The notes beneath the pieces were generated by a model. The model saw only the letters and a program-made list of their open reading frames with translations, was not told the DNA's origin and did no database searches. This document shows, piece by piece, positions 13,069 to 35,604 of a DNA stretch of 35,605 nucleotides (positions within the stretch are counted from its first letter, which is position 1; the number at the start of each line of letters is the position of its first letter). Origin of the DNA: Chrysochromulina tobinii (lineage: Eukaryota); contig JWZX01001991.1 of NCBI GenBank assembly GCA_001275005.1, forward strand, positions 1-35,605. Direction: 5' to 3'. Position numbers and translations under genes: made by a program.

Positions 13069-13312
13069 GAAAAAGTCAAGTCAAGTCAAGTCAAGTCAAG
13101 TCGGCTCGAGATCGGCCCGTTTATTTCTCACCTACTTGTTCTCCGAGGGCACGTATGTCAGCACTTATGACGTGTCACCTCTAGATGGACCCCCTCCGTC
13201 ATCTCCGCCTACTCCCGTCCTCCCCTGCTGGCTTCCGGAGCACATTCGATAGGCTTCCGTATGGTTGTCTGTTGTTTATGTATAGACTTGACTTGACTTG
13301 ACTTGACTTTCG
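13069..13312. repeat. about 240-bp segment bounded by inverted pentanucleotide arrays (AAGTC)6 ... (GACTT)5
   Basis: (AAGTC)6 at 13073-13102 and its reverse complement (GACTT)5 at 13285-13309; outer flanks CGAAA / TTTCG. Confidence 0.85.
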
Positions 13313-16600: not shown

Positions 16601-18237
16601 CTGTTGATGCAGCCGCGAGTCTGGTTGCAGCAGCGCCTGCCGTAATACCGGTACAGATCGTGGCAGCCCTCCTCTCCATGGCTGCACTTCTCGTGGGACT
16701 TTGGTTGGCGGTTGCCTGCTGTCGCCGTCGCCGTCGGCGGCAGCTATGGCACAATCACATGTGCACCCAGCAAGATGAGGGTGTGAGCCTTCCGTTGGCC
16801 CAGTTGCGGGATCCTCTCAAGAGTTCGGGCGGAAGCTCCGACGCGGCAGTCCCAAGTGTGAGTTCCGACGAGTCGACGCACCTCGAGGTGGTGGACTTCT
16901 CGACGCTCACGATGGCCAGGCCGATCGGAAAGGGCGGCTTCGCAACCGTCTGGATGGCACGGTGGCAGGGCACGACCCTGGCTGTCAAAGTCCTTCACGT
17001 GGCGAATGAGAACTTTGACGGGTCGGCGCTCCAGGAGGTGGCCATCCTTCGTCGTCTGCGCCACCCGTGCATCTGCGCCCTCTTCGGCCACATGCGGTTT
17101 GAGCAGCAGCCCGCGCTCGTCCTCGAGTACATGGCCGGCGGCTCGCTCGCCGCGTACCTTTTCCAGCCTTCTCCGACGTCAAACGGGCATGTCCAGACCG
17201 GCCTGCACGACGCGTTCTCACGGGGGCTTTCGAGCCTGGCTTCCTTGTACCATCGTGTCACGAGTGGGGCGAGGTCCGTTTCCGCACGTGAAGCGGCGCC
17301 CGACGGCTACACACTGCAGGAGGCGCCGCGGTATCCGCGTCCAGCAACCCCTGATTTCGACAAGCACCTTGGGTTTGCTGTGCAGCTGGCAAGCGGGCTG
17401 AGCTTCCTCCACTCGAACGGCATCCTGCACTGCGACGTCAAGACGGATAATGCTCTGCTCGACGTGACCCTCACCGTGTGCAAGCTCGCCGACTTTGGCT
17501 TGGCGAGACTCTCCCTGAACCAGGTGAGGCGTACCGGGGGGGGCGCAGGCCTCCCCTGGGGGGGAGGGACACTGCGGTATCTGGCGCCTGAGATCGTGGA
17601 GGCGAACAATGCGAGCCTCGAACGTGGCGACTGTAGCAGCGTCAGCTCCAAACACCGCACGCTCGTCAGCTGCGCGGACCGCACGGATGTCTATGCCTTT
17701 GCACTGCTGCTCTATGAGCTCCTGCATGAGCGCCGCGCCTTTGAGGCGATGTCGGGGATAGATGCCTGCCTCAGCGCCATGCGGGGGCAGCGGCCGCCGA
17801 TCTCGCTACCCCCCAATCTCCATGGGCTCGCAGACCTTATGCAGGAGAGTTGGGCGCAGCGCCCAGAGGACCGCCCGATCATGAGCACCGTGCTCGAGAG
17901 GCTCGAAGCGTGCATGCAAGCCCATTGCGTGCGATCAGGCAAGCAGCCGCAATCTGTGATCTCAGAGGATCATGCTCATGGTCACGCTGAAGCATCCTCC
18001 TCTCGGCCCACTCATGTGGAAGCATCCTCTTCTCGGCCCACTGCTGAAGCATCCTCCTCTCGGCCCACTGCTGGAGCATCCTCCTCTCGGCCCACTGCTG
18101 AAGCATCCTCCTCTCGGCCCACTGCTGAAGCATCCTCCTCTCGGCCCACTGCTGCGCCTTCGAAGACCGACCAAATCGGAGAGCACATCCAGCGCAATCT
18201 CCAGTTTTGGCGCAACCTCAACATACACCAACCTTGA
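13678..18237 (+). CDS. receptor-like protein kinase: signal peptide, 14 FG-GAP/VCBS repeats, Cys-rich (ephrin-receptor-like) stalk, TM, TKL-type non-RD kinase
   Basis: Signal MKTSWELLVAAALLGACA; 14x AAADVDGDGDLDVLLGN; CxxC..G repeats; TM IVAALLSMAALLVGLWLAVACC then RRRRRR; kinase GKGGFA, AVK, HCDVKTDN, DFG, GTLRYLAPE, DVYAF. Confidence 0.93.
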   Translation: MKTSWELLVAAALLGACAESAKSLDQHVAPTHARRVLFAGLHSPPRENLAPPQQPLASPPSSPPLPPKKPPRPAQPGWHVERQGRRRYPPPRDYAQELQPGGHPTAFAPPNCSARGRVGCLAMPKPARAKPAEGVRAALLPPTCTLSSEPGCLRLPKPLARTGHELLDGDGLVLRFRKLLPSGSPSTTSLAVADVDGDGDLDVLLGNDGDPSLVLLNAGDGTFPMNITLPGGGATTLSIAAADVDGDGDLDVLLGNWGSSSVVLLNAGDGTFPTSIELPLISSFSTLTGNKSITYAMTYAIAAADVDGDGDLDVLLGNNGSPSRVLLNAGDGTFPTSIDLPGGSAVTRSIAAADVDGDGDLDVLLGNWGSSSRVLLNAGGGTFLTSIELPGGGANTLSIAAADVDGDGDLDVLLGNWGDPSRVLLNAGNGTFPTSIALPGGSTYTSAIAAADVDGDGDLDVLLGNSGSSRVLLNAGDGTFPTSIELPGGSAGGTKSIAAADVDGDGDLDVLLVNVGNLRLQVLLNGLNVGDGTFPTSIELPGGGGGEKTSIAAADVDGDGDLDVLLGNWGSPSVMLLNAGDGTFPTSVELPGGSANTFSIAASDVDGDGDLDMLLANVGSSSVMLLNAGDGTFPTSIALPGGSVGGTYSIAAADVDGDGDLDVLLGGNEGPSRVLLNAGDGTFPTSIELPGGGATTLSIAAADVDGDGDLDVLLGNWGSPSVMLLNAGDGTFPTSIELPGGGAIRFSIAAADVDGDGDLDMLLGNYGSPSVVLLNVGDGTFPTSIELPGGSANTFSIAAADVDGDGDLDVLLGNDDSSSVVLLNAGDGTFPTSVELSGGSANTQSIALADVDGDGDLDVLLGNEGGPSLLLPFIRCSQPGTARSRFGNGCVRCPAPSSRRDDSFDICFECEEHTELDYRGECSSCKPGSDRSVGAAECTACPRGKRQGKAGTFCVDCSPGSYAPYDGLFGPTCSTVDAAASLVAAAPAVIPVQIVAALLSMAALLVGLWLAVACCRRRRRRQLWHNHMCTQQDEGVSLPLAQLRDPLKSSGGSSDAAVPSVSSDESTHLEVVDFSTLTMARPIGKGGFATVWMARWQGTTLAVKVLHVANENFDGSALQEVAILRRLRHPCICALFGHMRFEQQPALVLEYMAGGSLAAYLFQPSPTSNGHVQTGLHDAFSRGLSSLASLYHRVTSGARSVSAREAAPDGYTLQEAPRYPRPATPDFDKHLGFAVQLASGLSFLHSNGILHCDVKTDNALLDVTLTVCKLADFGLARLSLNQVRRTGGGAGLPWGGGTLRYLAPEIVEANNASLERGDCSSVSSKHRTLVSCADRTDVYAFALLLYELLHERRAFEAMSGIDACLSAMRGQRPPISLPPNLHGLADLMQESWAQRPEDRPIMSTVLERLEACMQAHCVRSGKQPQSVISEDHAHGHAEASSSRPTHVEASSSRPTAEASSSRPTAGASSSRPTAEASSSRPTAEASSSRPTAAPSKTDQIGEHIQRNLQFWRNLNIHQP
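14215..16290 (+). repeat. about 147-bp coding tandem array, 14 FG-GAP units
   Basis: GACGTGGACGGCGACGGCGACCTCGAC recurs 14 times at about 147-bp spacing. Confidence 0.95.
17987..18153 (+). repeat. 27-bp coding repeat (AEASSSRPT) x6 in the kinase tail
   Basis: GCTGAAGCATCCTCCTCTCGGCCCACT units. Confidence 0.9.
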
Positions 18238-19405: not shown

Positions 19406-21495
19406 CTAAGCCGCATCTCCCCCCTCAGCCTGTGCCTCGCCACGAGCCTCGGCGGCCAGACCGAGCAGCGTGAGGAGCCGCGGGCGGTGGCGCGCGAGCT
19501 TGGCGCGGAACTGTGCACGCGCGTGCCTGATGACGGAGGCAATCAGCATGCAATCAGCATGCCATCAGCATGCAATCAGGGTCGAGGATTTGGCGCGGAA
19601 CTGCGCACGCGCATGCCTGATGACGGAGGCAATCAGCATGCAATCAGCATGCAATCAGGGTCGAGGATTTGGCGCGGAACTGTGCACGCGCATGCCTCTT
19701 GAGACGCCCGTAGTGGATCCGATGCCCGAGCCAGATGACGGAGGCAATCAGCATGCAATCAGCATGCAATCAGCGTGCCTCTTGAGACGCCCGTAGTGGA
19801 TCCGATGCCCGAGCCAGATGACGGAGGCAATCAGCATGCAATCAGCATGCAATCAGCATGCAATCAGCATGCAATCAGCATGCCTCTTGAGACGCCCGTA
19901 GTGGATCCGATGCCCGAGCCAGATCTGATCTGGATCGAGATGCGCCGAGGTCCACGCGCTCCCGCCCGCCACCTTGCGCCTGCCCTGTGGAACGCCATTC
20001 GTTGCTGCCCAGCGCTTCGGTGCAACATCCTGTGGCCATCAGGGGCACTCAGAGGCACTCAGAGGCACTCAGAGGCACTCAGAGGCACTCAGAGGCACTC
20101 ACTAGCCCTCATAGTGGCACTCAATGGCAATCAACGGCCAGCACCTGCGGTGGCTCGCGGCTCCACGAAGGCGGTCGGCGCTGACGCCTCTCACGCACGC
20201 CGCCCGGATCGCCGTCGAGGGCGCCGTCGCGGGCGCCGTCGCAGGCACCCCCACCCGGTTCACTGCTGCTGCCGCCCGCCCCATCGCTGCGTGACCCTCC
20301 AACCGGGCGGCGGGCGAGTTCATCGGTCGCTGCAGCGCCCGCGCCGAAGCCGCCGCCGCCGTCGTCGTCGTCTGGACTGCCGTGCAGCTCCGGGTGTGAA
20401 TGTGAAGAGCCATGGCCGTCCTCCGGGTGTGAATGTGAAGAGCCATGGCCGTCCTCGGACGCAGGGGCGGCTGCATGCCGCTCCTGAGTAGGGGCGTCAT
20501 CAGCGGCTGCTTGCCGCTCCTGAGTAGGGGCGTCATCAGCGGCTGCATGCTCCCAGATCATCGGAATTTGGGTCGAGCCATACGTGGGGGCGCCGTCGCG
20601 AGCGGCTGCATGCTCCCAGATCATCGGAATTTGGGTCGAGCCATACGTGGGGGCGCCGTCGCGAGCGCCGTCGGAAGCCGCCGTGGCGCGCGCGGCGCTC
20701 GCGACGGCGCTCATCGACACGGCGCTCGCGACGGGCGCTCATCGACACGGCGCTCGCTTCGCCTCCCGCGTTGGCGCTCGCGACGGCGCTCGCGGCGACC
20801 ACTTCCCGTTTGACCGGTGCGCCATCACGACCGTCCGCCGCCTCGTCGAGCGTCGTCCTGAGCAGCTCGTCGCGCGTCGTCCTGAGCAGCTCGTCGCGCG
20901 TCCAATCCATGCCCTCCGCACCCTCGGCCTCTCCACGTCCCTCGGCTGCTGCCGCTGCCAGCGCACCTGCCGGTTCCGCCTCTTCGTCCTCGCCCTCCTC
21001 CTCCTCCTCCTCCTCCTCCTCCTCGTCCTCCTCCTCGTCCTCGTCCTCGTCGTCCTCCTCCTCGCCTTCTTCGCCGCCGCCGTCGTCCTCGCCATCGTGC
21101 TCACCATCGGCACCCTCGTCCTCGTCATTGTCCTGGTCGCCTGTGGCCATCCTCGCCGCCGCCGCCGCTGCGGGTGCTGCTCCCTCTGCCTCGTCGTCGT
21201 CGTCCTCCTCCTCCTCCTGATGATCCATGACGGCCCGCTGCTCGCGCAGGTACAAGTGCTGCCCTGGTGGGAGCTTGGTGGTTTGCAGCGGCCGACGCGC
21301 CCGCAGTTGCGCCGCCGTAGGCTCACCGAGCGGGGGCAACTTGATGTGCCGAAGCGTGGGAGCTGGGGCGGTGCTGCTGCCTCCGGACATGACCGCCGAA
21401 TGAGCGTGTAGCCACGCACGGGCGAGCTCGTATCCGGAGGAATCCACCAGACGGACGCTGTTGGAGGCCGAGTCCATCATGTCGCCGCCCTCCAT
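19406..21495 (-). CDS. LIN37: LIN37-like (DREAM/MuvB subunit) protein; exons 21495-20145, 20029-19884, 19526-19406; apparent +1 frameshift near 20734
   Basis: N-terminal SGYELARAWL..IKLPP resembles LIN37 LY.LCR.W..LP.P; the spliced C-terminus IWLGHRIHYGRLKRHARAQFRAKLARHRPRLLTLL resembles the LIN37 C-terminal basic helix. Exon phases fit (146 nt = 48 codons + 2; 121 nt = 1 + 40 codons ending in TAG). Confidence 0.6.
19527..19883 (-). other. predicted GC-AG intron made of (TGATTGCATGC)n modules and duplicated exon ends
   Basis: Donor AAGAG|GCATGC, acceptor CTCCGTCATCAG|G; splicing restores the reading frame. Confidence 0.7.
20030..20144 (-). other. predicted GT-AG intron containing a 10-bp repeat (TGAGTGCCTC) x6
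   Basis: CAG|GTGCTG donor, GGCCACAG| acceptor; contains in-frame stops and removal is phase 0. Confidence 0.72.
20390..20665. repeat. cluster of coding tandem duplications (three different units, each present twice)
   Basis: EDGHGSSHSHP x2, AAADDAPTQER x2, RDGAPTYGSTQIPMIWEHAAA x2. Confidence 0.85.
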
Positions 21496-21670
21496 GCACA
21501 AACGACTTCCGATGGGGCCGAAAAAAGGGTTTCACAGCACAATCGCGTGACCAGAAGGGAAACAGCTGTTTGAAGACTGGCATAACTAAGAACTTGCGCC
21601 GATCCCGCGAGATGCAGCCCTCGACCAATTGCCGCGACCGATTGCCATCGATCGCTATCAGCCTCCAGAA

Positions 21671-22462
21671 ATGCGTACGGGCCTGTACACGCTCTGCGGC
21701 GCGCTCTCTGCGGCGGCGGCCTTCCGGCCGGCCGGCGTGGCGCTGATGCCAGTGCACGCGCCCTCGCCCGTGCTGCGCGCGGCGCACGGCCTCGCGATGA
21801 CGGCGGCCACTGGGGAGGTGCCGTCCTTTGTCCAGACGGAGATGCGCGGCGCTGCGATGGCGCTGCACACGCGAGACCAGGCGCCGCGCGAGGGCAAGCA
21901 GCCAGCCCAGCGGCCGATGAGCTCCTGGCAGCCGACGCGCGCAGACTACCTGCAGTTCCTCGTCGACTCGCGCAAGGTCTACAGGACGCTCGAGGAGATC
22001 GTGGAGGAGACGGAGATGTTCGCGAGCTTCCGCGCGTCCGGGCTGGAGCGGGGCGCGGCGCTCGACAAGGACATTGCATGGTTTGCCGCAACCCACGGCG
22101 AGAAGGAGCCGGCCGTCAAGTCGCAGGGCGAGACGTACGCAGCCGAGCTGCGGAAGATGGTCGCGGACGGCGAGCTGGAGCGCTTCGTGTGCCACTTTTA
22201 CAACTTCTACTTCGCGCACACTGCCGGCGGCCGCATGATCGGCAAGCGGATGGCGGGCATGCTGCTCGACGGGCACACGCTCGAATTCTACCAGTGGGAC
22301 GGCGACGTCGATCAGGTGCTGCTGCCTGGGCTCCGCACCAAGATCGATGCGCTAGTGGCCGGCTGGTCGCGTGAGCAAAAGGACAAATGCCTCGCCGAGA
22401 CGGCGAACTCGTTCAAGGGCGGCGGCGCGATGATGCAGCACATCAGCCCGCCCAAGGAGTAG
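21671..22462 (+). CDS. HO1: plant-type haem oxygenase (HY1/HO1 family), plastid-targeted
   Basis: SFVQTEMRGAAMALHTRDQA, YLQFLVDSRKVY, FVCHFYNFYFAHTAGGRMIG, LEFYQW; the signal peptide ends AAAA-FRP (ASAFAP-like). Confidence 0.93.
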   Translation: MRTGLYTLCGALSAAAAFRPAGVALMPVHAPSPVLRAAHGLAMTAATGEVPSFVQTEMRGAAMALHTRDQAPREGKQPAQRPMSSWQPTRADYLQFLVDSRKVYRTLEEIVEETEMFASFRASGLERGAALDKDIAWFAATHGEKEPAVKSQGETYAAELRKMVADGELERFVCHFYNFYFAHTAGGRMIGKRMAGMLLDGHTLEFYQWDGDVDQVLLPGLRTKIDALVAGWSREQKDKCLAETANSFKGGGAMMQHISPPKE

Positions 22463-22527
22463 GCGGCAGTAGGCTGCTGCGTGGCGCCCCCGCCCCCTCG
22501 CGGTGCTCTGAGCGCCCATTATGGCGT

Positions 22528-22727
22528 GACACGGCGACAGACTACGGTACATGGGGGGTCGAGGCACCCCACCGCGCGAGATCAGAGACACGGCGACAGA
22601 CGACATACGGACATGGCGGGGTGAGGCACCACACAGCGCGGGGTTGCAGCACACCCGCGCCCACCATGGCGCCCACGCAGCTTCGAGTGGCGCGTGCCCA
22701 CTGTATGGCGCCCATGCAGCTTCGAGG
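22528..22727. repeat. two adjacent short tandem duplications downstream of the haem oxygenase
   Basis: GACACGGCGACAGAC..ACATGG..GAGGCACC x2, then ATGGCGCCCAYGCAGCTTCGAG x2. Confidence 0.7.
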
Positions 22728-23424
22728 GACGGCTTTCACCACTACTTATCATCGACATCTTGTGTTTAGCACGCCACACCGACGCGCGCGTGTAGTCGGC
22801 TGCGGCTGAGGAGCCCCGCCTTTCTTTCTGCGTGTGTTTACATAGACCAGATTTTTGCGGTGCCAATAGAGCGCGCGCTGCAGCGGGCGCCGCCGAGACG
22901 GACGACGCGCTCGCGAGCGACTGTCCATCTACAACGTCGCTCCGGCCGCGCGGCCGGGGCCCGCCGCTCCCCCCTCGCGCCGCCAAACATGCCCCTCCGC
23001 ACGGGATGGTCCTAACGGGGATGGTTGGGCACAGACCACATAATTGTTATCGACATCCGAGATCCGTTCAAACTTCAATCCGTTTTCAATGATCAATCCC
23101 CGCGGTTACCCCCGGGTGTACGTAACGTGCTGAATAACGTGCCACGCGCACAGTGCGAACCCGACAAAGCTCATGGGCGACACTCTCCAACGCCTCATTA
23201 CGGCACGCCAAGGCCATACAGCAACCTTTTCTCTGTATCTCCACTGCTACAGGGGCACCCCCATGATCAAGATAAGGTCGAGAAGGCCGAAGCCAAACAC
23301 GACACGGGCTCCTAATAAGCCCTTCTTGGCGTTCAGCCCGCCACCTGCCGCGGCCATCCCCGGCCCCCGTGCCGACACAACCTCTTCCGCTGTCGCCGAG
23401 GCCGCTGTCTCCATGTTTGACGAA

Positions 23425-23659
23425 TTAGGCTGCCTTGCGCTTCTTGCCTACTCCGGCAGGCGGCGGCGGCTCGGGTTCGTCAAACATGGCATCCGCGAGC
23501 GCCTGCTCCTTTTGCGCATCAAACTCGGCGACGCGCTTGGGAGCCTTCTTACCGGTATCCTTACCGGTACGCGCCGCCGCGGGCGCCGCAGGCTCTGCTG
23601 CGGCCACAGGCGCCAGGGGCGGCGCTGCCGACTGCTGCTGCTGCTGCTGCTGCTGCCGC

Positions 23660-23693
<34 letters not shown>

Positions 23694-25471
23694 CATCGAG
23701 GTAGTACCCCAACCCCTGGGCCCCACGCTTGAAGACGTACCCAATGCGAGCGCCCCCAAACTTGGCCGCCTGGACGAAGGCGGCGGTGGCGCTCGGGACG
23801 GCGCTCGTGCTGGCGGCGGCGGTGGCGGTGGGCGTGGCTTCCTTGGCTTCCTTGGCTTTCTTGGCTGGCTTGGCTGCCGCTTTCGCCGCCGCGGCTGCCG
23901 CCTTCGCCTCCGCTGCCTCCGCTGCCGCCGCTTTCTCCGCCGCCGCCGCCGCCGCCTCCGCCTCCGCCGCGGCCGCGGCCGCCGCCGCCTTGAGCCTGCT
24001 CTTGCTCAGCGCCGCCTCGGCCTTGGCTGCTTTTTTGTTGATTGATTTGGTAAGGAGATTGCGCACCGCATCAAGCTGCTGCGGCGCCGGTGCAGACGCC
24101 CGCGACGACGCCGCGCCCGCGCCGCTGGCCACGGCGGCGGCGGCGCCCGCGTCGGCGCTGCCCTTGCCAGCTCTGGCTGCCTTGGTGTCATTGACGCTGC
24201 CGCCTGCCTTCGCCGCTGCCGCCTTGGCGTTGCCCACCTGCGGCGTCACGCCCGCCTTGGCATTGGTGGGAACGTTCACACCCGCGTTCACACCCGCCTT
24301 GGCCTCCTCCTTCACGTTCACACCCGCCTTGGCCTCCTCCTTCACGTTCACACCCGCCTTGGCCTCCTCCTTCGCGATCGCCGCCGCCTTCTCAAGCCGT
24401 TGCTGCAGAGCGTAGAGCCGAGGGCGCGGTGGTGAGCACTGGCATGCAAGGCAGGTCATCAGAGGCCATCAACGTACCTGCAGCTCGTAGAGTTGCTTCC
24501 CGAGGGCGCTGTGGTGAGCACTCGCATGCAAGGCAGGTCATCAGAGGCCATCAACGTACCTGCAGCTCGTAGAGTTGCTTCCGGTTACGCTCGTGGGTCG
24601 TCTTCGCGCTGGCCAAGTCGAAGACACGCTCAGCGAGCCACCCCAACGGTCGCGGCAGCGGCACCTCCTCGTCGTCCTCGTCGTCCTCGTCCTCGTCGTC
24701 CTCGTCGTCCTCCTTCTCGTCCGTCTCGTCCTCCTCCATGTCCTTCCCGTCCGCCTTGCCCCGCCGCCGCGTCAGAGGCTCAAGGACGCCATTGACCACC
24801 CGTTGGATAACAACCGAATCCTCCGCGACGCCCAGCAGCGCCACAAAGGGCTCGAGGAGCACGCAGACGGCCTTCTCGGTGAGCCCGTCGGCCGCCTCGC
24901 GCCCCGTCGCCACGATCGCCCAAAAGTAGTCTGCCATGAAGAAGCGGATCGAAGCAGGGCACTCGACATTCAACGGTCCCGCTGAGAGTGCCGCGGCGAA
25001 CGCTTGCAGCTCGTCGTCGGACCAGCCGGACTCGCGCACGCGCGCGACGCAGTGGACGAGCGACCGGCGGATCAGCTTGTAAAACTTGTCGAGCCGCAGC
25101 CGGTCGATGCCGGTCCACTCGCGCACCATCGTCTGCCAGAAGACGCGCACGAAGAGCCACTCGCGCCCTGGGGCCACCGAGTGGACGAGGCCGCCGAGCT
25201 TGTCGGCGAGCTCGGCCTGGACCTTGGGCTTGTCCGAGTGCCACATGCAGTAGAAGAGCGCCTTCCAGATCTTTCGCAGCTCGAGCTCCTCGATGTCGTG
25301 CGCGCGCCGCAGGTACCGCTCGAGCGCTTTGACGGCCTTGTCGCGAACGTCCTTGTCGCTGGATGCCAGCGCCTGGCCAAATTTGGGCGTCGGCCCAGAG
25401 AGAGCGGCCTCCTCGGGGCGTGGCCGCGACGAGGTCGGCGAGGTGGTCGCAGGGGCCTTCTTCTTGCCCAT
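23425..25471 (-). CDS. RRP1: ribosomal RNA processing protein 1 (Nop52/RRP1); exons 25471-24560 and 24402-23425
   Basis: FGQALAS..RDKA, KIWKALFYCMWHSDKP, FWQTMVREWTGIDRLRLDKFY; a phase-0 intron joins YELQ to QRLEK. Confidence 0.9.
23632..23690. repeat. (CAG)n microsatellite encoding polyQ
   Basis: CTG repeats on the plus strand. Confidence 0.95.
24403..24559 (-). other. predicted GT-AG intron of RRP1 containing an 82-bp duplication that includes the exon end and donor
   Basis: CAG|GTACGT donors at 24559 and 24477; acceptor CTCTGCAG| at 24403. Confidence 0.82.
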
Positions 25472-25872
25472 GTGTCTCGCGCGAGCGTCGGGTCCGGCCA
25501 CTTGTTCAGGCACGTCGCCGTGTTCACCACGGCGCCTCCATCAAATTCGTAAGGCGAGCACATACGGGAAAATGTACGAATCATTCTCGCGCACTCGCGA
25601 GTTTCTATTCACGCTCTTAAAGAGTCCGGGTCGCGTTGGACGACCTTCCGGGACATGCCTTGCGGCCCCGTCGCACCCATCCGAGAACACAATCGAAAAC
25701 GAGCCTGTAGAGAAGCGGTGCTTCAAGAATCGCGAAGTAACGGTCTACCGGTACGTGCTCCATGCTTCGTCTGGAATGGAAAACCGAGCGTCCCACTGTC
25801 GCGTCCCAGCAAACTTGCCAGAGTCCTCGCCCTTCATCCCTCCTCCGCAGAGGGACGACGGAAGGAGAAGCA

Positions 25873-27604
25873 ATGCCGAGGCGCAATGAACGCGCACCGT
25901 CTGGAGCTGACTGGCTGGCGCCGGAAGCGGCCGTCGAAATCGTCATGCAGGACGAGGGTCTGGTCGGCTCGCGCTATCCAGCCATCATTTTGTCTGTTGA
26001 CCACGCCCAGAAGCAGGCTCGGGTTGAGCACGAGCAGTTACTTGAGGATGATGCTGCAGATGCACCACTTCGCGAGAACGCATCATTCGCGCAGATCACA
26101 CCACGCCCGCCACCGCCACCCGCCGATTTTGCCAAGAGCCTGTGCGTTGGCATGCCACTCGAAGTTTTCCATGAAGATGGATGGTGGGAGGTGACCCTGC
26201 ACGAAATCAAGCGCGGCAGCAGTTCGCAGATCAACTATCTGGTCCGGAACGACATGTACCGCACCAAGCGCTGGGTTGGCGTGGATGCGTTGCGGCCGCG
26301 GTGGCGCTTCTCGAGTGGCCACTGGCGAGCTGGAAGCGTCCCTGGCCCCGACGCAGAGGAGGCTGAGGAGGATGAGGCGGAGGAGGTGGAGGAGGCGGAG
26401 GAGGAGGAGGAGGCCGAGGAGACGGCGAGAGCCCCAGCGCCGCAGCCGCTCACGGCAGACGAGGCCAGGGCGGCCGCGGCGGCCGAGGGGCTCGAGCTGG
26501 TGCCTTCGTCGAAAGGTGAGACGGGCTTCAAGGGCGTGACCAGGAGTCATGGCAAGTACACAGCGCAGGTCTGGGAGAACAAAGACAAGCTGCGCTATCT
26601 CGGCATCTTTGCGACACCGGAAGAGGCGGCCTTGCACTACGCGAGGCATATCGGGGCGGAGCAAGCGGCGTTGGAGGCGGCGAAGGCGGCGAGGGCGGCG
26701 AAGAAGAGGGGAGGTTCTGTGTCGCGGGATGATGATGTCCCCCCAAAGGAGCTTCCTGATGAGGATGCGAAAAGGAATGCGCTGGCTTCAACAGAGAGTG
26801 CTAGCCGACCGAAGCGGCGGGCAGCAGTTGCGGCTGTTGAAAAAGCTGGCCGCTGCCTTCAGATAGAGAAAGCTACCATTGAAGAGGCATGCTATGGCAT
26901 GCCAATTACAGTTCGTCAGCCGCAGCCGTTTTATGTCGGCCAACGCGTAATGGCACGCTATGGATTTGATGCCGCCGCCGTCCGCAAGCCCACCCGCTTC
27001 TATCCTGGCGTGGTGCGCGCAGTGCATACGGCGCCCGGCGAATCAGCGTGCTATGATATCGAGTACGACGACGGCGATCGTGAGGTTGGCGTGCGGGCAG
27101 ATCTGGTCCGTGACGTTTCAGGCGACGCCGATAAGAGAGTGTGCGCTGCCGCCGTCCCCTGGCAACTGCCATCGCTGTACCAAAGTGCGCCGAAGGAAAA
27201 GAGCACCGTGCCACAGCCGCTCACGCGTGAAGAGGCCAGCGCGGCCGGGCCACCCTTGCTCAAGCGGCCCCCGGGGCGTGCGCCTGGGGGGAAGCAGTGG
27301 GATCCGAGGGCTGGGTGGGTACCAGTAGAGGCGGCGGAGGAGGTGGCGGAGGAAGAGGCGGCGGAGGAAGAGGCGGCCGAGGCGGAGGCCGACGCCGAGC
27401 CGATGAACAGCGAAGGCGAAGGTTGCGATTTGGGTTCCACTCTGGGGCCCGTGGCGGCGCCAAATATAACTCGGTGTGAGCAACTAGGCCCCGAGCGCGA
27501 CCTCGAGCAACAACCACCGCTGCCGCCAACGCCGCCTCCACCGCCGCCTCCGCCGTCAACTCCACCGCCGCCTCCACCGCCGCCTCCACCGCCGCCGCCG
27601 CCTC

Positions 27605-27635
<31 letters not shown>

Positions 27636-30600
27636 TCCACCGCCACTACCATCACTGTGGCAGCCTCCACCTGATGCTCTAAACTTGCCCATTCGGCAAT
27701 GGCTCGATACAATCTATCCTAATTTTGGCAATCTGTATGGCCCTGCGCTCGAAGCCGCGGGCTACGATGAACTCTTGCTCATCGACGGCGATGACGAAGA
27801 GTTCAACGAGATGATGAAGACGCTTCGGGAGTCGACCGGGAACAAGAGTGCACACTTTAGGAAGATAGAGAAGGCAGCACGAAAGGCCCTGGGCCTTCCC
27901 CCCGGCCTGAGCCAGCCTCACGCCGCGCCTGAGGCTGCCCCGAACCAGCCTCATCCGGCCACTTTCACGACCTCTCAACCCGTTTCCTCAGCTACCGTAC
28001 CCGAGGCTGCGGCCAGCCAGCCTCTACCAGCTGCCGCGCCTGAGGCTAGGGATCTCGCCCTTGCGCCTCCTGATGCTTTCACACCGATGGCGATCGCTTC
28101 AAAAACCACCTCATCAGAGCTTGAGAGTGCCGCACCGTCACATGCGGATACAGCGGAGGCGGAGGCGGCGGAGGCAGCTGGTATGGAGGAAGTGGAAGAG
28201 GCGAGAGAGGAGGAGGCGGCCGATGAGGAGATGGAAGCGGAGTCGATGAACGCCGTATCCACCACGTCAACGAACCTCGGATATTTGAGGGCTGAGGCAG
28301 AGGCATCCGAAGCGAAGGCGGCAGCCTTGAGCTCTGAGGCAGAGGCAGCCGAAGAGAAGGCGGCAGCCTTGGCCACCGAGGCTGAGCAAGCGGAAAAGGA
28401 GGCGGTCGGCCTCGCGCGCAAGGCCACGCCACCCGTGCTGCGGCTCACGGTGGTGGGGGAGATGGACAAGACCACAAAGGACACCGAAGTCCCAGCGAAG
28501 ACGCCGGCGCTGGCGGCGCTGCCGGAGCGCCAGCCTCCGATGGCTATCGCTTCGGAATCCACCTCCGACAAGGCCGATCTGATCCAGTGCGGTCGCGAGG
28601 CAATTGCGAAGAGCTCTTCAGCAGGAAGTGCACCACTGTCATCAGGAGAAGAGCCGGCCGCCGCCCAAGCGCCGCCTCCTGCATGCGCTCCCGCTGCAGC
28701 TTCCGCCTCCGCCCCCGCCCCCGCCACTGCCGTCAGGCCGGCTTCAGGTCACGATGTTTTGGTCGGAGCGGGATTGGACAGCGATGATGACGAGCTTCCC
28801 CTAAACGGCAGCCGCAAGCTGCCACGCACATGCTCCTCACCGCCTGCGCAGAAAGACCTTGAGAATGCAGATACAGCGGTGGCGGATGCAGTGAAGGCGG
28901 TAGAGGGGGAGGAGGAGTCAGAGGCGGCCGATGCGGAGATGGAAGCGGAGTCGGAAGCGGAGTTGACGAGTCAGCAGATGATACCCACCACGTCATCCGA
29001 AGCGAAGGCGGCAGCCTTGAGCTCTGAGGCAGAGGCAGCTGAAGCGAAGGCGGCAGCCTTGGCCACCGCGGCTAAGCAGGCGGCAAAGGAGGCCGAGGAG
29101 GCGAAGGCACGGGCCTCAGCGCTTGAGGCCACCAAGGCGGAGGCTGCACGGGCAGCCAGGGCTCAGGCGGAGGCGGCGGATGGGGAAGTGGAGGCGGGCG
29201 AGCGAGCGGTCAATCTTATACTTGGACTAACAGACCCTGGTCAGGCTGGCACTGCCACCGATGCGCCGCCGACTATCGCTTTGCCCGCCGCACAGCCGAT
29301 CCCCATCTCACCGGCCGAGGGGCCACCAGCTGCGGTCGGCGACCGCATGGAGCTCACTTATTTTGACGAGGGACTATTCGACAGATGTCGACCCGACCGA
29401 CAGATGGAAGAGGAGCGCGACAGATGGGGTCCCGACAGATGGGATGAGGTCAAGATTGTCGCGCTCGAAAAGGAAGGCGATGCCGACGCCGTCGCCGGCA
29501 AGCCCACAGGACCGCGCGCTCTCGTGACCTACACGGCGTACCCCGGAGAAGACCAGAAGTGGGTGTCATTCAATCGGCTACGACCCGCGCATCCCGCGAC
29601 GCCTACCGCGTGGACGCGCCGGCTTATAAAGGGCGACCAGGTCGAGCTCTTCTATGAAGGCGGCTGGTGGGAGGTTCAGTACCTCTGCCGGACAAAGAAG
29701 AAGCAAAGCCTCGTGCTCGCCGTGCGCTATGGAATAACGCACGAGGTGAATGCTCTGCAGCTGCGTCCAGGCTGGCAGCGCCGCGCTTCCGATGGCGAGT
29801 GGACGCTCATGCTTGGCGGCGTGGCTCGTACCGTCGCCGAGGTTGAGTCGATGCTTCACTCCAAGGCCTCATCGAACACCTCATCGAACGGAGAGATGAG
29901 GCTCCCTGCGAGCACTCCGGCGACAGATGGTACTGCTGCCGTCGCTGCCGCCGCTGCCACCGCGGCGCTATCGACACCAGACCTCGAGCAGTGTATCATC
30001 TGTGATCCCGAAGATGCCGGACGTCTTGGATACACTACCTGCTGCTCGAATTTGATTTGCTTCAAGTGTTTCAGGAAGCCGGGTATGGCGGGGTTCGAGG
30101 AGGCCGTCGCCTCAGATGACGACTCACAGGATGTCCATCAGCCAAGTCGTTGCCCATATTGTCGAGAACCTTTCAAAAGCTTGTCTCCCAGTCGCGCGCT
30201 CAACTCGATGCGATCAACTCGACGTTCACAGCGGGAGGACTTGATGTCAAAGACGCCTGGCGAGGAACTATTAGCAGGAACTATTAGCATCTTTGCACGC
30301 GATCTATGGACGAAGTGCAAGGTGGTCGAGTTCAATCCTCATCTGCGAGTCCATCGTATTGAAGGTCGTGACTTGCATCGGGTTGCCTCATCGAACACCT
30401 TCTGGGTGGATTTACAAAGAGATCCCGACAACTTGCTCGTGTCGATGCGCAAGCTTGCGCTCGAAGAAGCAGGATTGGCCAATGCAGGGCAAGATCCCTC
30501 GTCGCTGCCACAAGGTGCCCAACCGTATCGATGGGTGACTGGGACGGTGTGCTGGGCAGTGGGGACAAGCTGCATGAAAGAAGACCGACACACAGGGATA

Positions 30601-31611
30601 CATGAAAATGACTTGGGAGGAGTGGACAGTTCAGCGACTGCAAATCGAGACAACGACGGAGGAAGCCGCAGAAGCCTCAGAGATCGCAGTGGCAGTGGAA
30701 CCGCGCTCGATGAATCGTCAAAAACTGCCCCCCGTAAACGACCTGCAGAAGCTAGTTGTTCTGTGGATCCGGGTGCATCAACGTGCCCACGTAAGCGGTG
30801 GACTTTTGGGTCTGAAAAAGAGGGCAGTGATGACGATGATGACGAGTGCCCAAACCGTGCTGCGCTGGGTGCCAATGACAATACGGGCATTCGAGCTCCA
30901 ATCTCGAGCTCCAATCTCCCATCTCGAGCTCCAATCTGCGAGGAAGGGTATTGCGAGCTCGAATGCCCGTATTGCCATAAGCATTATAACCTCGCGAAAC
31001 GTATCCCCATGCAGCTAAGGCCGTGCGAGCACCAGATTTGCAACCTATGCCTACCTAAGTATACTCAGAAGGGCACTTGCCCGATGTGCGAAACAGTCCT
31101 CGACGACTCACAGCCTTCGTGTGAGGATGGCGTTTTGGTTGCAGAGCTTCGTCGCCTTAACGAGCGTACTTCCATGTTGACCGCAACAGCGTCGACCGTC
31201 CTCCAACTTGCTGCGGCAAAGGCACAACGTGCAGCCCTGAGCGCCGCTCCGCCCGCTGCAACGTCTGCTGATCAGCCCGCGGGCGGTGGGTATTCATGTT
31301 CACAGCCCGCGGGCGGAGGGCCAGCTGCAACGCTCACACTCGCTTCTGCAGGCGTGCAGGAGCACCGCCAACGGGACGACGCGATGCTTCGGTGGGCCAA
31401 GGAGCGCGGGCAGGCGGGGGTGCCATGGGCCCAGCACTGGGCGAGCCCATTGGGCGAGCCCGTATCGATGGCGACCGAGCTCGCGCGTCGAGATGCGAAG
31501 GCCGAAGCGGAGGGGACGGACGACTCCTTTTCGGGGCTGCGCGACGAGGATGAAGACGACGCAGGCGGCGGAGCAGCGGCTGAAGAGGAAGACGACGCCA
31601 TGGGCGACTGA
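25873..31611 (+). CDS. giant chromatin-associated protein: Agenet x2, AP2-like DNA-binding domain, Tudor, poly-Pro, SAM-like, coiled coil, Agenet x2, RING x2
   Basis: LEVFHEDGWWEV and VELFYEGGWWEV (Agenet); TGFKGV..YTAQV..YLGIFATPEEAALHY (AP2); VGQRVMARY..YPGVV..YDIEYDDGDRE (Tudor); CIIC..CC..CFKC..CPYC and CPYC..PCEHQICNLC..CPMC (RING). Probable start MPRRN at 25873. Confidence 0.88.
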
Positions 31612-32105
31612 GCCGGTCCGGCTTATCTTTAGCCTTTACAGCCGAACTTCAACTTGAAATGCACGTCGGTGGACCTCGCTCGGCCTGCTCCGAGGTCGGA
31701 CGCGAGATAAAATGGGCGCTAAATTCGGAAGTAGCGGACGGCTAGGAATTGCGTTGTGATGCTTTCTTCCGGTACTTTGCGACCGACGCACTATCCGTCG
31801 ATCCGCCTACGAGTACGACGGTACCACATGGTGCATGGTGTTAAGGTCGTGCGATGGTGTGCGTGTTTCTTTAATATTTTTAATATTTCACGGAGAGAGA
31901 ACTTCGTTCGTTCCTGTCCCGCCTCTCGCAAGAGATCAAGCTCACCACTGAGGTGTGGTTGTGCGACTCGACTCAGGTACCTCCGCCTACTCATTCTTTA
32001 CTCATTCAGCCGTACCGTACTGATGTCCTCATGACTGTCCTGTGTGTGCAATGGGGTCCAGCCCCGGTCGAAATGATTTCTGCTGAAATAAAAACGATAT
32101 ATTAC

Positions 32106-34024
32106 TCAATCCCGCCGATTAAGCATGCTCACCAGCTGGCGGTTGAGCGCCTCGTAAACTTCACAGCGATAGTGAAAATTGTCCGTGTACGGCTTGTAGC
32201 CGTGCGGCCTCGCCGTGCCCGTCGGATCGCCCGCAAGCGGTGAAGCCTCACGCAACAACAGATCTTGGAAGCCGGACTGGTTCTGTCTGAAGGGAAGCAC
32301 GAGCGACGATGCCCAAAGCGCATCGGTGGTACGGAAGGCATCAAGAAGCTCCCAGCCAGTCTCGTTGAGCAAGTCGCGCCACGTTTGGTCGCAGCTCGGG
32401 CCGTTGGAGCAACCGCGTGTCTCGCGCACCGTGTCTGATGTAGAGAAGACCTGGGCGAGTGTTGGGTAGGGTGAGGGTGCGCATGAGAATATGGGCGTGC
32501 GTTCAGGAGTGTGCATGGGAGGCAGATCCATGCGAGCTCAGGCCAGATCCATGCGAGCTCCGGCCAGATCCATGCGAGCTCCGGCCAGATCCATGCGAGC
32601 TCAGGCTAGAGCAGCCACGCTTGCACGATGGCAGCAGGCGCGTGATGGCGCGGTCGCGCGCGTGTGCGAGAATAACCGAGGATGGCCGCAGCCCAGCCCT
32701 CCCCTTCGCGTCAACCTGGGCACTGCCCTGTCACTCACTGCTCCTCTCGGGCAATCAGTGGCAATCAGTGGCAACTCCCCTTCACGTCAACCTGGGCACT
32801 GCCCTGTCACTCACCGCTCCTCTCGGGCAATCAGTGGCAATCAGTGGCAACTCCCCTTCACGTCAACCTGGGCACTGCCCTGTCACTCACCGCTCCTCGC
32901 GGGCAATCAGTGGCAATCAGTGGCAATCAGCATGCACTCACCGCCCCTCGCGGGCAGCTCTTGAAGATCGCGTGACCACTCGCGCCCACCAGCTGCTTCA
33001 CCGCATGCATGAACCGCCGAAGCTCGTCGAGGTCCTTGTCGGCGGGCGTGTACCATGGGCCCATCCCAAGGACAAGCGCGTCACCCTCGCGCAGCAGGTG
33101 GCGCATCCGTCCAGTCACATTGGTCCAGCCGTTGAACACTTGCGGCGTTGCCTTGCACTGCGGGCTGAGAAGGCTTCTGGCACAAGCGTCGCCAGCGGCG
33201 CGGCGGACGGCGCTAAAGCCTCTGGACCACGTCGTGTCCTCCTCTCGCACAAGGCTCAGCAGGCTCGGGCCGGATAATTTCAGGAAGGCGAGTCGAGCAC
33301 TGCCGAGCTCAAACCAGCGGTTCTCCATTCCGCGCTCCTGGTTGCACTCGCAGACCTCGCGGCCTTCGAGCAGAGTCGTGCTTTGGTTGTGAAAGGCAGC
33401 CCACTTGAGTGTGAGCCACGTTGAGTGCACGCCACGCCGTGCGAGCCACTTGGCGTGGCTCGCATTCAAATCGTTGGAGCGCCATGGGACTGTCGTTTTG
33501 CTCAGTGGCACCGAAACGTTCGTGGAGCTCTCGCTGCATATGCTGAACGCAGCGTCGCGTGGTGACCTCGGATACGACCCGGAGCTCAGCATCATCGCGA
33601 GCGACAGGTACTGGTAACGCGTATTCGAGTCTCCCATGAAATAAGTGGTGCGTCCAGCGAGGCTACGTGGCGGCCACCCAGGCACATGGCGGCCAAGTTC
33701 CTCGTGCGCCAAGTTTTCTTCCGAGAAGGTGAGCCTTCCATCTGAGAGTGACCAATGAAGCGGCGAAGATGGCGCGATGACGGCATTGCAATACCCGTGC
33801 GCGACGCTCGAATTCACGCGCCTCACCACACGGTTTGCCGGGTGGTTGGTCAGAACCCTCTCGCACTCAGTCGCAGGTAGACGGTCCTCGCACGAGCTGC
33901 CATTGACTGCAATGCAGAAGCCACAGGTCCTCTGGCAGTGGGAGCATGCGAAGGTGGTCGCTGTGCACGATGTCGGCGCTGCACCCAGCGGTAACTGCGG
34001 TAGTTGAAAGCAGGGTTGTGCCAT
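32106..34024 (-). CDS. SGNH-like / PC-esterase (TBL-type) protein with an N-terminal ShK-like Cys-rich segment; exons 34024-32942 and 32450-32106
   Basis: YFMGDSNTRYQY (GDS motif) in exon 1 and TDNFHY (DxxH) in exon 2; CSHCQRTCGFC..CED. Splicing joins FKSCPRGA to VFSTSD in phase 0. An alternative upstream ATG lies at 34117. Confidence 0.78.
32451..32941 (-). other. predicted GT-AG intron with a 76-bp x3 repeat (junction copies + TGATTGCCAC) and a 21-bp x4 repeat
   Basis: GCG|GTGAGT donor; pyrimidine-rich ..ACTCGCCCAG| acceptor. Confidence 0.78.
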
Positions 34025-34398: not shown

Positions 34399-35604
34399 CT
34401 AGATTCGTTGGAGAGGAGAAGCGGTGTCGTCACCAGCATCTTCTGTGCCAGATCCCGCACGCTTGGCAAGGATGCGTAGCGCGCGGAGTCTGCGACGGGC
34501 TCGCGCGTACGAAAGCACCGCTTCGGGATAAAAGTCATCGAACTGCACGCCCTCTGGCAGCTGCGAGAGAACCTGGTTCTGAACGCCCTGCGTCATCTGC
34601 TCGGTGATCGTGCCTCGCACTTCGAAGCAGTCGTCTGGCAGCGCTGACTGTGCGGCCAGGGAGTCCCAGCAGGCCAAGCATCGCCCTGCGGGATGGTGCG
34701 TGATCGGTGTCGCCACCGCCGTCAGCCGCGCTGCTTGGAGCGTGGCATGCGCGGCGCTGCTACTTGGGCGGGCTGCGAGGGTGGCAGAGCCCACGGGGAG
34801 TGAGGCGTGCCATCTCTCGAGATGATCCCGCACCACTTCACGGCAGGCTGTCTCGCCGTGCTCGGTCATTTCGACGCCGCTGTCGACATCCCGCTTCTTT
34901 CGGGGCCTGCGCTCGCCACGCCTTAGCTCCGCGAGTTGCTTGCCTCTGATTGCGGCTGATTGCCTCTGATTGCCGGTGCCGAAGGCTCCTCGGATTGCGG
35001 CTGATTGCCTCTGATTGCGACGACGAATCATGTAAAGAAGTACGAGTAGCGTGCACGCGCAAGCGGCCGCGAAAGCTCCAGCCATGATCCAAGCGATCAT
35101 GAGCAAGGACGACGACGAGGCACTCTCGCTGGCCGGGAGCGCTGCGGCCGAGTTGCCCATGTTTGGCGGTGGCGCCGGCTCGACGAGACGAATGGTGGGC
35201 GTGCTGAGGACCGTCGCTCCAAGTGTGGCAGACAGAGCCGATGGCGGCTGATCCAAGGTATTTTGGACGCGCGAACGGCCTGATGCACTCGAAAGGAAGA
35301 AGGACGCGGTGACTGTGAGCGATCCTGACACGATGTTGAGCGCAATGGCGGAGGCTGTGACGCCAGTTGCACGAGCCAGCTGTAGAGTGAAATGGGTTGC
35401 GTTGAAGGACTCAATGGTGCCTGCAATCTGGAACGTCGCAACTAGAGATGGTTCCGTCTGAGGCCTTGACGGCGGTGGTGGCCTCGGCGACGGCGGTGGA
35501 GGGGACGGCTCTGGAGGGTCTGGCGATGGCGGCGGCGGTGGAGGCAGGTGAGGCTCGGGGAGGTTGTAAGAAGGGGGTGGGGGAGAAGGCTCCGGAGGCG
35601 ACGG
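34399..35604 (-). CDS. 5'-truncated Pro-rich type I membrane protein (runs off the window end)
   Basis: The frame is open from 35604 (PSPPEPSPP..) through a beta-rich juxtamembrane module (VATFQIAGTIESFN..IVSGSLTVTASF), TM LLMIAWIMAGAFAAACACTLLVLLYMI, RRR and a cytoplasmic tail. Confidence 0.75.
   Translation of the reverse strand, partial: PSPPEPSPPPPSYNLPEPHLPPPPPPSPDPPEPSPPPPSPRPPPPSRPQTEPSLVATFQIAGTIESFNATHFTLQLARATGVTASAIALNIVSGSLTVTASFFLSSASGRSRVQNTLDQPPSALSATLGATVLSTPTIRLVEPAPPPNMGNSAAALPASESASSSSLLMIAWIMAGAFAAACACTLLVLLYMIRRRNQRQSAAIRGAFGTGNQRQSAAIRGKQLAELRRGERRPRKKRDVDSGVEMTEHGETACREVVRDHLERWHASLPVGSATLAARPSSSAAHATLQAARLTAVATPITHHPAGRCLACWDSLAAQSALPDDCFEVRGTITEQMTQGVQNQVLSQLPEGVQFDDFYPEAVLSYARARRRLRALRILAKRAGSGTEDAGDDTASPLQRI

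What the first reader, a model, noticed from the sequence alone, without database searches (positions are those of the whole stretch)
19527..32941. A recurring intron architecture: junction duplications plus branch-point-like TGAT/TGAG repeats (candidate intron-generating system)
Seen: all four predicted introns carry related short motifs on the sense strand (CTGATTGCATG, CTGAGTGCCT, CTGATGAC/TTGATGGCC, CTGATTGCCA), and three contain tandem copies of their own exon ends or splice sites. No terminal inverted repeats or transposase are visible. Known: CTGAT fits the YTRAY branch consensus, and described introners are mostly TIR-type DNA elements. Inference: a slippage or repair-based process may seed branch-point repeats and recruit duplicated exon AG/GY as splice sites. 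Repeat-rich introns are known in haptophytes, so the novelty lies in the mechanism.
Basis: inference. Interest (0 to 1): 0.8.

Follow-up and report, generated by a model that had tools for sequence, protein, structure and literature searches.

The report
New introns from duplicated exon ends
In this haptophyte alga many predicted introns are short inserts framed by a 10-47 base copy of the gene's own exon and filled with shared splice-signal-like sequence, and at four genes some close relatives lack the intron, so new introns are likely still being made here, probably by error-prone DNA repair rather than by a classical transposon.

Summary
The four predicted introns are 19883-19527, 20144-20030, 24559-24403 and 32941-32451, all on the minus strand. 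In related contigs TGATTG arrays lie sense in genes 107 times against 6 antisense, with none intergenic. 80 of 155 array introns hold a copy of 12 or more bases of their own exon (shuffled: 0.1%). Two forms exist: the intron starts with a 10-47 base copy of the next exon (donor co-opted) and ends in one of two shared modules, or it ends with a copy of the previous exon (acceptor co-opted). At 4 of 9 loci tested, near-identical relatives lack the intron on genomic contigs. The RRP1 intron is absent in distant homologs. The same inserts also land at existing splice sites, so not every copy marks a birth. Best reading: repair-type insertion with filler copied from other introns, kept when it splices. 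No enzyme, spliced read or branch point was shown. A published introner survey scored this species zero. This scan noted a similar footprint earlier on another piece of this genome.

The parts
20145..21495 (-). Gene A, first exon (no Pfam match); the frame changes near 20733, where one DNA contig lacks one base
   Evidence: one base left out at 20733 at depth 84.8 of 188.4 in run X2
20030..20144 (-). Intron I2, 115 nt, GT-AG, 10-bp CTGAGTGCCT array (6.3 copies); no long exon copy
   Evidence: predicted, not seen spliced
19884..20029 (-). Gene A exon between I2 and I1; its last 41 nt are copied inside I1
19527..19883 (-). Intron I1, 357 nt, GC-AG, 11-bp CTGATTGCATG arrays; built of two exon-end-copy units and two exon-start-copy units
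   Evidence: weak RNA hint: an RNA contig leaves the genome at 19523 while a DNA contig runs on to 19553
19669..19736 (-). Copy of the uninterrupted exon-exon junction inside I1 (41 + 27 nt, 67 of 68 match)
19527..19545 (-). M1-type end module (branch-like TGAT, pyrimidines, CATCAG acceptor); second copy at 19635-19617
19406..19526 (-). Gene A last exon; its first 27 nt are copied inside I1
24560..25471 (-). RRP1/Nop52 exon 1
   Evidence: Pfam PF05997 E 2e-66; homologs
24403..24559 (-). Intron I3, 157 nt, GT-AG: short TGAT units, an M2-like core (about 24449-24420), and an end that resembles the exon-1 end (13 of 15 nt); 82-bp duplication 24418-24582
   Evidence: present in 20 of 20 listed close relatives that reach the site, absent in homolog ORFs on 35-474 kb contigs
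23425..24402 (-). RRP1 exon 2
   Evidence: continues the homolog motif after the junction
32942..34024 (-). Gene D exon 1 (family with 38 representatives, no Pfam match)
32451..32941 (-). Intron I4, 491 nt, GT-AG; 10-bp CTGATTGCCA arrays and three 76-bp units carrying exon-1 end and donor (32699-32926); 21-bp repeat 32523-32610
32106..32450 (-). Gene D exon 2
   Evidence: matches 18 homolog representatives; joined to exon 1 in P0490 and P0497
34919..35041 (-). TGATTG array in antisense orientation inside an open frame (34399-35604); 123 nt that other gene copies appear to lack
   Evidence: joint 34918-35042 in two RNA runs and one DNA run, letters between not known

Best explanation
New introns likely arise in this alga when repair of a break or nick inside a gene duplicates 10-47 bases of exon and fills the gap with sequence probably copied from existing introns. 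Shown: the predicted introns start with a copy of the next exon or end with a copy of the previous one. The filler is TGATTG-type 10-11-mers and/or one of two shared end modules (M1, about 19 nt ending CCTCATCAG; M2, a core of about 25 nt usually followed by pyrimidines and CCCACAG). The filler is almost always in the gene's sense direction. Alleles without the insert exist. Inferred: the upstream exon copy supplies the GT/GC donor, or the downstream copy supplies the AG. The filler supplies the branch point and the other splice site. Inserts that splice out exactly survive, and sense arrays that do not splice are removed because they carry stops in all three frames. The same process also hits existing splice sites and, with ordinary tandem duplication, builds the complex interiors of I1, I3 and I4.
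For: Strand bias 107:6 and 24:1; 0 of 126 arrays inside the 45.6 kb called intergenic, 3 at a contig end. Exon copies in 80 of 155 array introns vs 0.1%. Exon-2 copy at the intron start in 26 of 89 M1 and 7 of 23 M2 introns, null 1% or less; exon-1 copy at the intron end in 11 of 74 other array introns and 0 of 112 M1/M2 introns. The same 16-nt end in 16 of 155 introns and CCTCATCAG in 45 of 155. The ProRS intron is only a 23-nt exon copy plus 15 nt of M1, twice, and is absent in three 98%-identical ORFs that read into a downstream intron. Also absent in relatives at TRM1 (contig 17 kb), a GH127 gene (25.6 and 29 kb, reading into the next intron) and L076 (up to 30 kb). A repeat unit spans the copy/filler boundary in 5 of 32 cases vs 1.0 expected. 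Copy length is variable, unlike the fixed 3-8 nt duplications of dinoflagellate introners. Sense arrays give stops in all frames, antisense in none.
Against: No enzyme or template was identified. No spliced read was seen for I1-I4. Introns come from my own gene model, which misplaced I4 and missed several M2 introns. One ortholog pair (L035/L086) showed no clear intron presence/absence and differed in arrays and junction copies, and I4 and the second ProRS intron gained arrays later, so many copies postdate the intron. Polarity by outgroup was checked only for RRP1 and ProRS. Five of 9 loci gave ambiguous results. Microhomology was found in only 5 of 32. M2 cores also occur antisense (4 of 49) or without an acceptor. 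Similar 10-mer arrays occur in 17 prokaryote contigs, so the motif alone does not imply splicing.
Confidence: 0.55

Rival explanations
1. M1 and M2 are very short non-autonomous mobile elements moved by an element-encoded enzyme, either a non-LTR reverse transcriptase (target-primed, variable duplication, truncated 5' ends) or an HUH/Replitron transposase.
For: Variable duplication length. Two unlinked introns share about 50 nt of near-identical 3' end with different 5' start points. Replitron-1 inserts in fixed orientation with variable duplications, and one Replitron protein is reported in C. tobinii (PMC10288648). A non-LTR introner that co-opts its 5' site is listed for another haptophyte (PMC12130899 supplement).
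Against: No fixed element ends: M2 cores occur without the acceptor end, and arrays differ at each locus. No terminal repeats seen. No arrays in intergenic DNA, where a mobile element should accumulate. No transposase or RT domain in the 148 ORFs or exons scanned, which is a small part of the genome.
Confidence: 0.25
2. The introns are older. The exon copies come from later tandem duplication or from partial repair on spliced mRNA, and the intron-less alleles are losses.
For: Tandem duplication is frequent everywhere: 114 exonic arrays (109 with period a multiple of 3), 51 intronic, 30 across junctions (only 9 multiples of 3). Arrays and junction copies were added to existing introns at I4, ProRS J2 and L086. 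mRNA-templated repair would also give a junction copy.
Against: RRP1 and ProRS introns are absent in all outgroup ORFs seen on long contigs. Exon copies are near-perfect at the polymorphic loci (27 of 27, 27 of 28, 22 of 23 nt). The ProRS intron has no unique body that could be old.
Confidence: 0.12
3. The filler is made locally by polymerase slippage and fold-back, and selection for splice signals alone makes the ends look alike.
For: Repeat spacers differ by locus and sometimes match adjacent exon; M1's end is close to an inverted repeat unit.
Against: An exact 15-nt M1 sits in an intron that is still polymorphic, and a 25-50 nt M2 recurs in 25 of 248 introns. Local synthesis cannot easily produce these.
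Confidence: 0.08

Closest known systems
Intron gain by staggered double-strand-break repair in Daphnia pulex (PMC4202315, passages seen)
   Same: A direct repeat of an exon end at the opposite end of a new intron; internal repeats from later events; polymorphism in populations.
   Different: Daphnia repeats are 4-12 bp and the filler source is mostly unknown. Here copies are 10-47 nt and the filler is shared between genes and carries splice-signal-like motifs in sense orientation.
Introners of marine Chrysochromulina MAGs and E. huxleyi (PMC9860276 section 7 and supplement rows; PMC12130899 supplement rows)
   Same: No TIR; one splice site co-opted from the target duplication and the other carried. 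E. huxleyi fam24 is listed as 'co-opt 5', carry 3'' with 10-bp terminal direct repeats.
   Different: The Chrysochromulina example has a fixed 4-bp duplication, and those families are defined by whole-intron similarity. C. tobinii scored 0 families in the 2025 survey. Here only end modules are shared and duplication length varies.
Symbiodinium and Polarella introner-like elements (bioRxiv 10.1101/2020.10.14.339549, parts 1-2 of 4 read)
   Same: Donor recruited from the start of the duplication, acceptor carried; exon 2 starts with a donor-like dinucleotide.
   Different: Fixed 3-8 nt duplications, inverted repeats in Symbiodinium, and often both orientations.
Tandem genomic duplication of AGGT exon segments (PMC3443670, passages seen)
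   Same: Splice sites arise from duplicated exon sequence.
   Different: Only one site comes from the duplicate; a foreign filler supplies the rest.
Replitron-1 of Chlamydomonas (PMC10288648, section 9 part 1 read)
   Same: Variable-length target duplication and fixed orientation at the target.
   Different: 0.9-3.6 kb elements with 6-bp terminal direct repeats and a Rep transposase; none of these seen here.
10-11 bp intronic repeats of Emiliania huxleyi (Read et al. 2013; recalled, paper not held)
   Same: Recalled: 10-11 bp repeats concentrated in introns with strand and positional bias.
   Different: As recalled, that work did not tie the repeats to exon duplications or intron gain; not verified here.

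Membership tests
Introner | Related sequence in introns of many unrelated genes | tested here: met
   M1-type ends in 89 and M2 in 23 of 248 predicted introns; M2 in 25 by a looser rule
Introner | Copies similar along the whole intron | tested here: not met
   Only end modules and repeat units are shared; the rest is local exon copy. C. tobinii has 0 families in the PMC12130899 dataset
Introner | Insertion absent from orthologous alleles | tested here: met
   4 of 9 loci clear, 5 ambiguous
TIR DNA-transposon introner | Terminal inverted repeats and fixed-length target duplication | tested here: not met
   No bracketing TIR in the window introns examined; duplications of 10-47 nt
Introner | Autonomous partner element | tested here: inconclusive
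   None in 148 ORFs or exons scanned; no whole genome held
Break-repair intron gain (Daphnia type) | [quoted passage not shown] | tested here: met
Break-repair intron gain (Daphnia type) | Filler unique to each locus | tested here: not met
   M1 and M2 recur across genes
Break-repair intron gain (Daphnia type) | Dependence on end-joining or polymerase theta | not testable with these tools
   needs mutants or de novo events
AGGT tandem-duplication gain | Intron made only of duplicated exon | tested here: not met
   filler present even in the shortest case, ProRS
Non-LTR (target-primed) retroelement | Variable duplication with fixed 3' end and truncated 5' end | tested here: inconclusive
   fits many M1/M2 introns, but M2 cores also occur without the acceptor end; family features recalled
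Replitron | Short terminal direct repeats and Rep HUH transposase | not tested
   no terminal repeats noticed; the C. tobinii Rep locus was not examined
U2 spliceosomal intron | Excised in mRNA at GY-AG with branch A in the TGAT/CTCAC motif | tested here: inconclusive
   junctions agree with database models or ORFs for gene D, ProRS, TRM1, GH127 and L064; last YTGAY lies 15-19 nt from the end in 67 of 233; no lariat data

The most novel reading that the evidence does not exclude
Introns copy themselves without any transposon: a host repair polymerase with reverse-transcriptase activity uses excised intron RNA or pre-mRNA as the patch at breaks in transcribed genes. That would explain sense-only filler, its absence between genes, and inserts that stop exactly at an intron's AG or GT. 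The ProRS insert is essentially the branch-point-to-AG tail of an M1 intron joined to an exon TGAT.
Probability: 0.2. Interest if true: 0.92.

Novelty: new variant of a known kind. Interest (0 to 1): 0.74.

Why it matters
Where new introns get their sequence is a long-open question, and the largest recent survey attributes gain mainly to transposons and scores this species zero. Here a culturable alga appears to gain introns now, with segregating empty alleles and a footprint that names both the target (duplicated exon) and a likely donor (other introns' ends). That makes the repair and RNA-template models testable by population genomics and mutation accumulation. It also explains broken gene models in this genus, such as the RRP1 protein recorded as ending inside intron I3.

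Tried and rejected
No whole genome was held, so the statistics rest on metagenome loci. Three pattern scans of viral contigs gave 0, 1 and 0 hits. The genome-contig scan gave 17 prokaryote hits. A ProRS scan of viral contigs gave only distant matches. A homolog search with gene A's middle exon found nothing, so I1 and I2 have no ortholog test. RNA laying showed no joint at I1-I4 among the 15 of 171 joints listed; direct splicing stays open. An Rfam scan of an M2 intron region found nothing. I first took 32714 as the start of gene D exon 2 and rejected it on homolog evidence. I first read I3's end as preserving the ancestral LYALQ peptide; this is weakened because part of that end belongs to the M2 module. 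L026/L079 antisense arrays lie in what looks like a TIR element, not an intron. Five loci were not counted as polymorphic: filamin, L056, L064 and gene D (read-through ORFs on contigs of 1-3.3 kb, possibly cDNA) and L027+ (unclear structure); two more queries were not in the collection. Assembly collapse as the source of the intron-less ProRS alleles was considered: by my reading the identical stretches are under 20 nt, and three other loci show the same on 17-30 kb contigs. Ten literature searches found no description of this architecture in C. tobinii; subscription papers, bioRxiv supplements, the cut part of the PMC9860276 table and files 13-14 of PMC12130899 were not seen.
Full report
What the window is. 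GC-rich, gene-dense eukaryotic DNA with mostly intron-free genes. The spliced protein of the gene at 34024-32106 is listed as Chrysochromulina tobinii on a contig of this window's length (P0497). No whole genome was held.

The four introns. All lie on the minus strand. A gene model I wrote, with strand-neutral intron emission and seed splice motifs partly read from this window, placed I1 at 19883-19527 (GC-AG), I2 at 20144-20030 and I3 at 24559-24403. It placed the I4 acceptor near 32744. Homologs and two database proteins, one an ORF read from a contiguous 1.6-kb contig (P0490), show the real acceptor at 32451. The named motifs are all sense: TGATTG occurs 14, 1, 0 and 7 times and TGAGTG 0, 7, 0 and 4 times, with none antisense. 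I1 contains a 67-of-68 copy of the uninterrupted exon junction. I3 has an 82-bp duplication over the donor and ends in 15 nt resembling the exon-1 end. I4 has three 76-bp units with exon end and donor. I2 has no long copy. RNA contigs gave no listed joint at these introns (15 of 171 joints shown). That is a weak hint only.

Beyond the window. One pattern scan returned 139 loci and estimated about 4,400 stretches from 2 of 64 parts scanned. I used 33 long-contig loci plus the window (393 kb) and 27 further loci. I left out 59 loci under 900 nt, 4 duplicates and 14 judged bacterial or doubtful. One long-contig gene, ProRS, is 100% identical over the queried exon to a C. tobinii protein. Of 126 arrays in the first set, 107 were sense and 6 antisense in introns with at least 100 nt of exon on both sides; 8 and 3 had weaker flanks and 2 were called exonic. 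In the second set the counts were 24 and 1, plus 15 and 2 weak, of 42. With intron and intergenic emission made equal, none fell inside 45.6 kb of intergenic DNA and 3 lay at a contig end. Pfam profiles continue across several predicted junctions, for example kinesin positions 298 to 299.

Junction copies. 80 of 155 array introns hold an exact copy of 12 nt or more of a flanking exon, 38 of them 20 nt or more; shuffled pairs gave 0.1% and 0%. Allowing one mismatch, the intron starts with 10-47 nt of the next exon in 26 of 89 introns ending in module M1, 7 of 23 with module M2, 6 of 74 other array introns and 4 of 62 others (null 1% or less). It ends with 10-32 nt of the previous exon in 11 of 74 other array introns, 2 of 62 others and 0 of 112 M1/M2 introns. 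So the duplicate supplies whichever splice site the filler lacks. M1 (typically TGATTGCCTCCCTCATCAG) gives the same last 9 nt in 45 of 155 introns and the same last 16 nt in 16. In 64 of 69 such introns the next exon begins GT or GC. M2 has the core TGCATGCAAGTGCTCACCACGGCG, sense in 45 of 49 places; I3 carries a diverged copy. The last YTGAY lies 15-19 nt from the intron end in 67 of 233 introns, as a branch point would, but this was not tested.

Gain and polymorphism. The RRP1 intron I3 is in 20 of 20 listed close relatives that reach the site and is absent from 43-53% identical homolog ORFs, some on contigs of 35 to 474 kb. The ProRS intron in L027 is two 38-nt units, each a 23-nt exon copy ending in TGAT plus 15 nt of M1. 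Among 15 listed cluster members, 8 stop in this intron and 3 run through the site yet read into a later intron on contigs of 2.8-4.8 kb; partly spliced RNA is not excluded for these three. Outgroups at 76-86% lack it, including contigs of 217 and 23 kb. Of eight more loci found, three show intron-less alleles on long contigs: TRM1 (6 ORFs, 97-98%, up to 17 kb), a GH127 gene (3 ORFs, 99%, 25.6 and 29 kb, reading into the next intron) and L076 (10 ORFs, 94-97%, up to 30 kb). Five were ambiguous. Only up to 15 members per cluster were listed.

Results against a simple birth story. The ortholog pair L035/L086 showed no clear intron presence/absence and differed in arrays and junction copies, including an M1-like filler without AG inserted twice at an old donor. 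The second ProRS intron exists with and without an array-plus-exon-copy at its donor, and a relative of gene D (89%) appears to start I4 without the array. Plain tandem duplication is common: 114 exonic cases, 109 with period a multiple of three, against 22 of 51 in introns and 9 of 30 across junctions, so frame-breaking duplications survive mainly where an intron absorbs them. A repeat unit spans the copy/filler boundary in only 5 of 32 cases, though this exceeds 2,000 shuffles (mean 1.0, maximum 4). Similar 10-mer arrays occur in 17 prokaryote contigs. An antisense array sits inside an open frame at 34919-35041; antisense arrays have no stops, sense arrays have stops in all frames.

Mechanism. 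Shown: duplication plus filler, shared modules, sense bias, empty alleles. Inferred: that the footprint comes from repair synthesis with template switching, of the kind described for synthesis-dependent end joining (PMC7407515, passages); that the template is other introns; and that selection keeps only spliceable outcomes. I put about 0.85 on ongoing gain, 0.55 on host repair, 0.25 on a mobile-element enzyme, 0.12 on old introns with losses and 0.08 on purely local synthesis. The lack of intergenic arrays suggests targeting to transcribed genes, which motivates the RNA-template reading (0.2).

Comparison with known systems. Daphnia neointrons carry 4-12 bp exon repeats and filler of mostly unknown source (PMC4202315, passages). 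Marine Chrysochromulina introners have a 4-bp duplication, no TIR and a co-opted acceptor; 72 of 177 families show TIRs (PMC9860276, section 7). The 2025 survey lists 0 families for C. tobinii and a five-member E. huxleyi family with 10-bp direct repeats (PMC12130899, supplement rows). Dinoflagellate classes have fixed 3-8 nt duplications (bioRxiv 10.1101/2020.10.14.339549, parts 1-2 of 4). Replitron-1 makes variable duplications, and one Replitron locus is reported in C. tobinii (PMC10288648). The C. tobin genome paper passages mention only about one intron per gene (PMC4580454). Strand-biased intronic repeats in E. huxleyi are recalled from Read et al. 2013, which was not held. It works like an introner but fails the whole-length-similarity and fixed-duplication tests; it resembles repair-type gain but with shared filler. 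Ten searches found no description of it; unseen supplements and subscription papers could hold one.

Verdict. Real, general in this lineage, probably still active, mechanism partly open. New variant of a known kind; interest 0.74.

Noticed in passing
window 34919-35041: A TGATTG array in antisense orientation lies inside a 401-codon open frame; contigs of other gene copies skip these 123 nt in both RNA and DNA runs, so it may be an in-frame insert that became coding.
   Followed up: partly
window 20733: One extra base relative to one DNA contig shifts gene A's frame; likely an assembly error or allele.
   Followed up: partly
L026 about 100-1690 and L079: An element with terminal C-rich/G-rich inverted ends and TGTGTTTT subterminal repeats, found at two different flanks, carries TGATTG arrays; it looks like a TIR DNA transposon.
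   Followed up: partly
L002-L018: 17 bacterial or MAG contigs carry the same 10-bp CTGATTGC(A/C)(A/T) tandem units, apparently between genes.
   Followed up: no
L035 6059-6123 and L086 3767: M2 core without an acceptor inserted with a duplication across the stop codon, in sense orientation, with different copy number between the two alleles.
   Followed up: partly
window 13678-18237: Intron-free 1,519-aa receptor-like kinase with about 13 FG-GAP repeats (147-bp unit).
   Followed up: no
window 25741-31611: Intron-free 1,956-codon frame with Agenet/Tudor and RING domains; RNA contigs cover much of it.
   Followed up: no
window 13073-13102 and 13285-13309: AAGTC pentamer runs in inverted orientation about 180 bp apart between divergent genes.
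   Followed up: no
P0010-P0012, P0024, P0025: Other haptophyte-like RRP1 genes appear to have an intron near the N-terminus that this gene lacks, pointing to high intron turnover in the group.
   Followed up: partly
L054 3227-12457: A gene with a bacterial-type alpha-2-macroglobulin domain carries M1 introns with 17- and 30-nt exon copies; if laterally acquired, its introns must be later gains.
   Followed up: no
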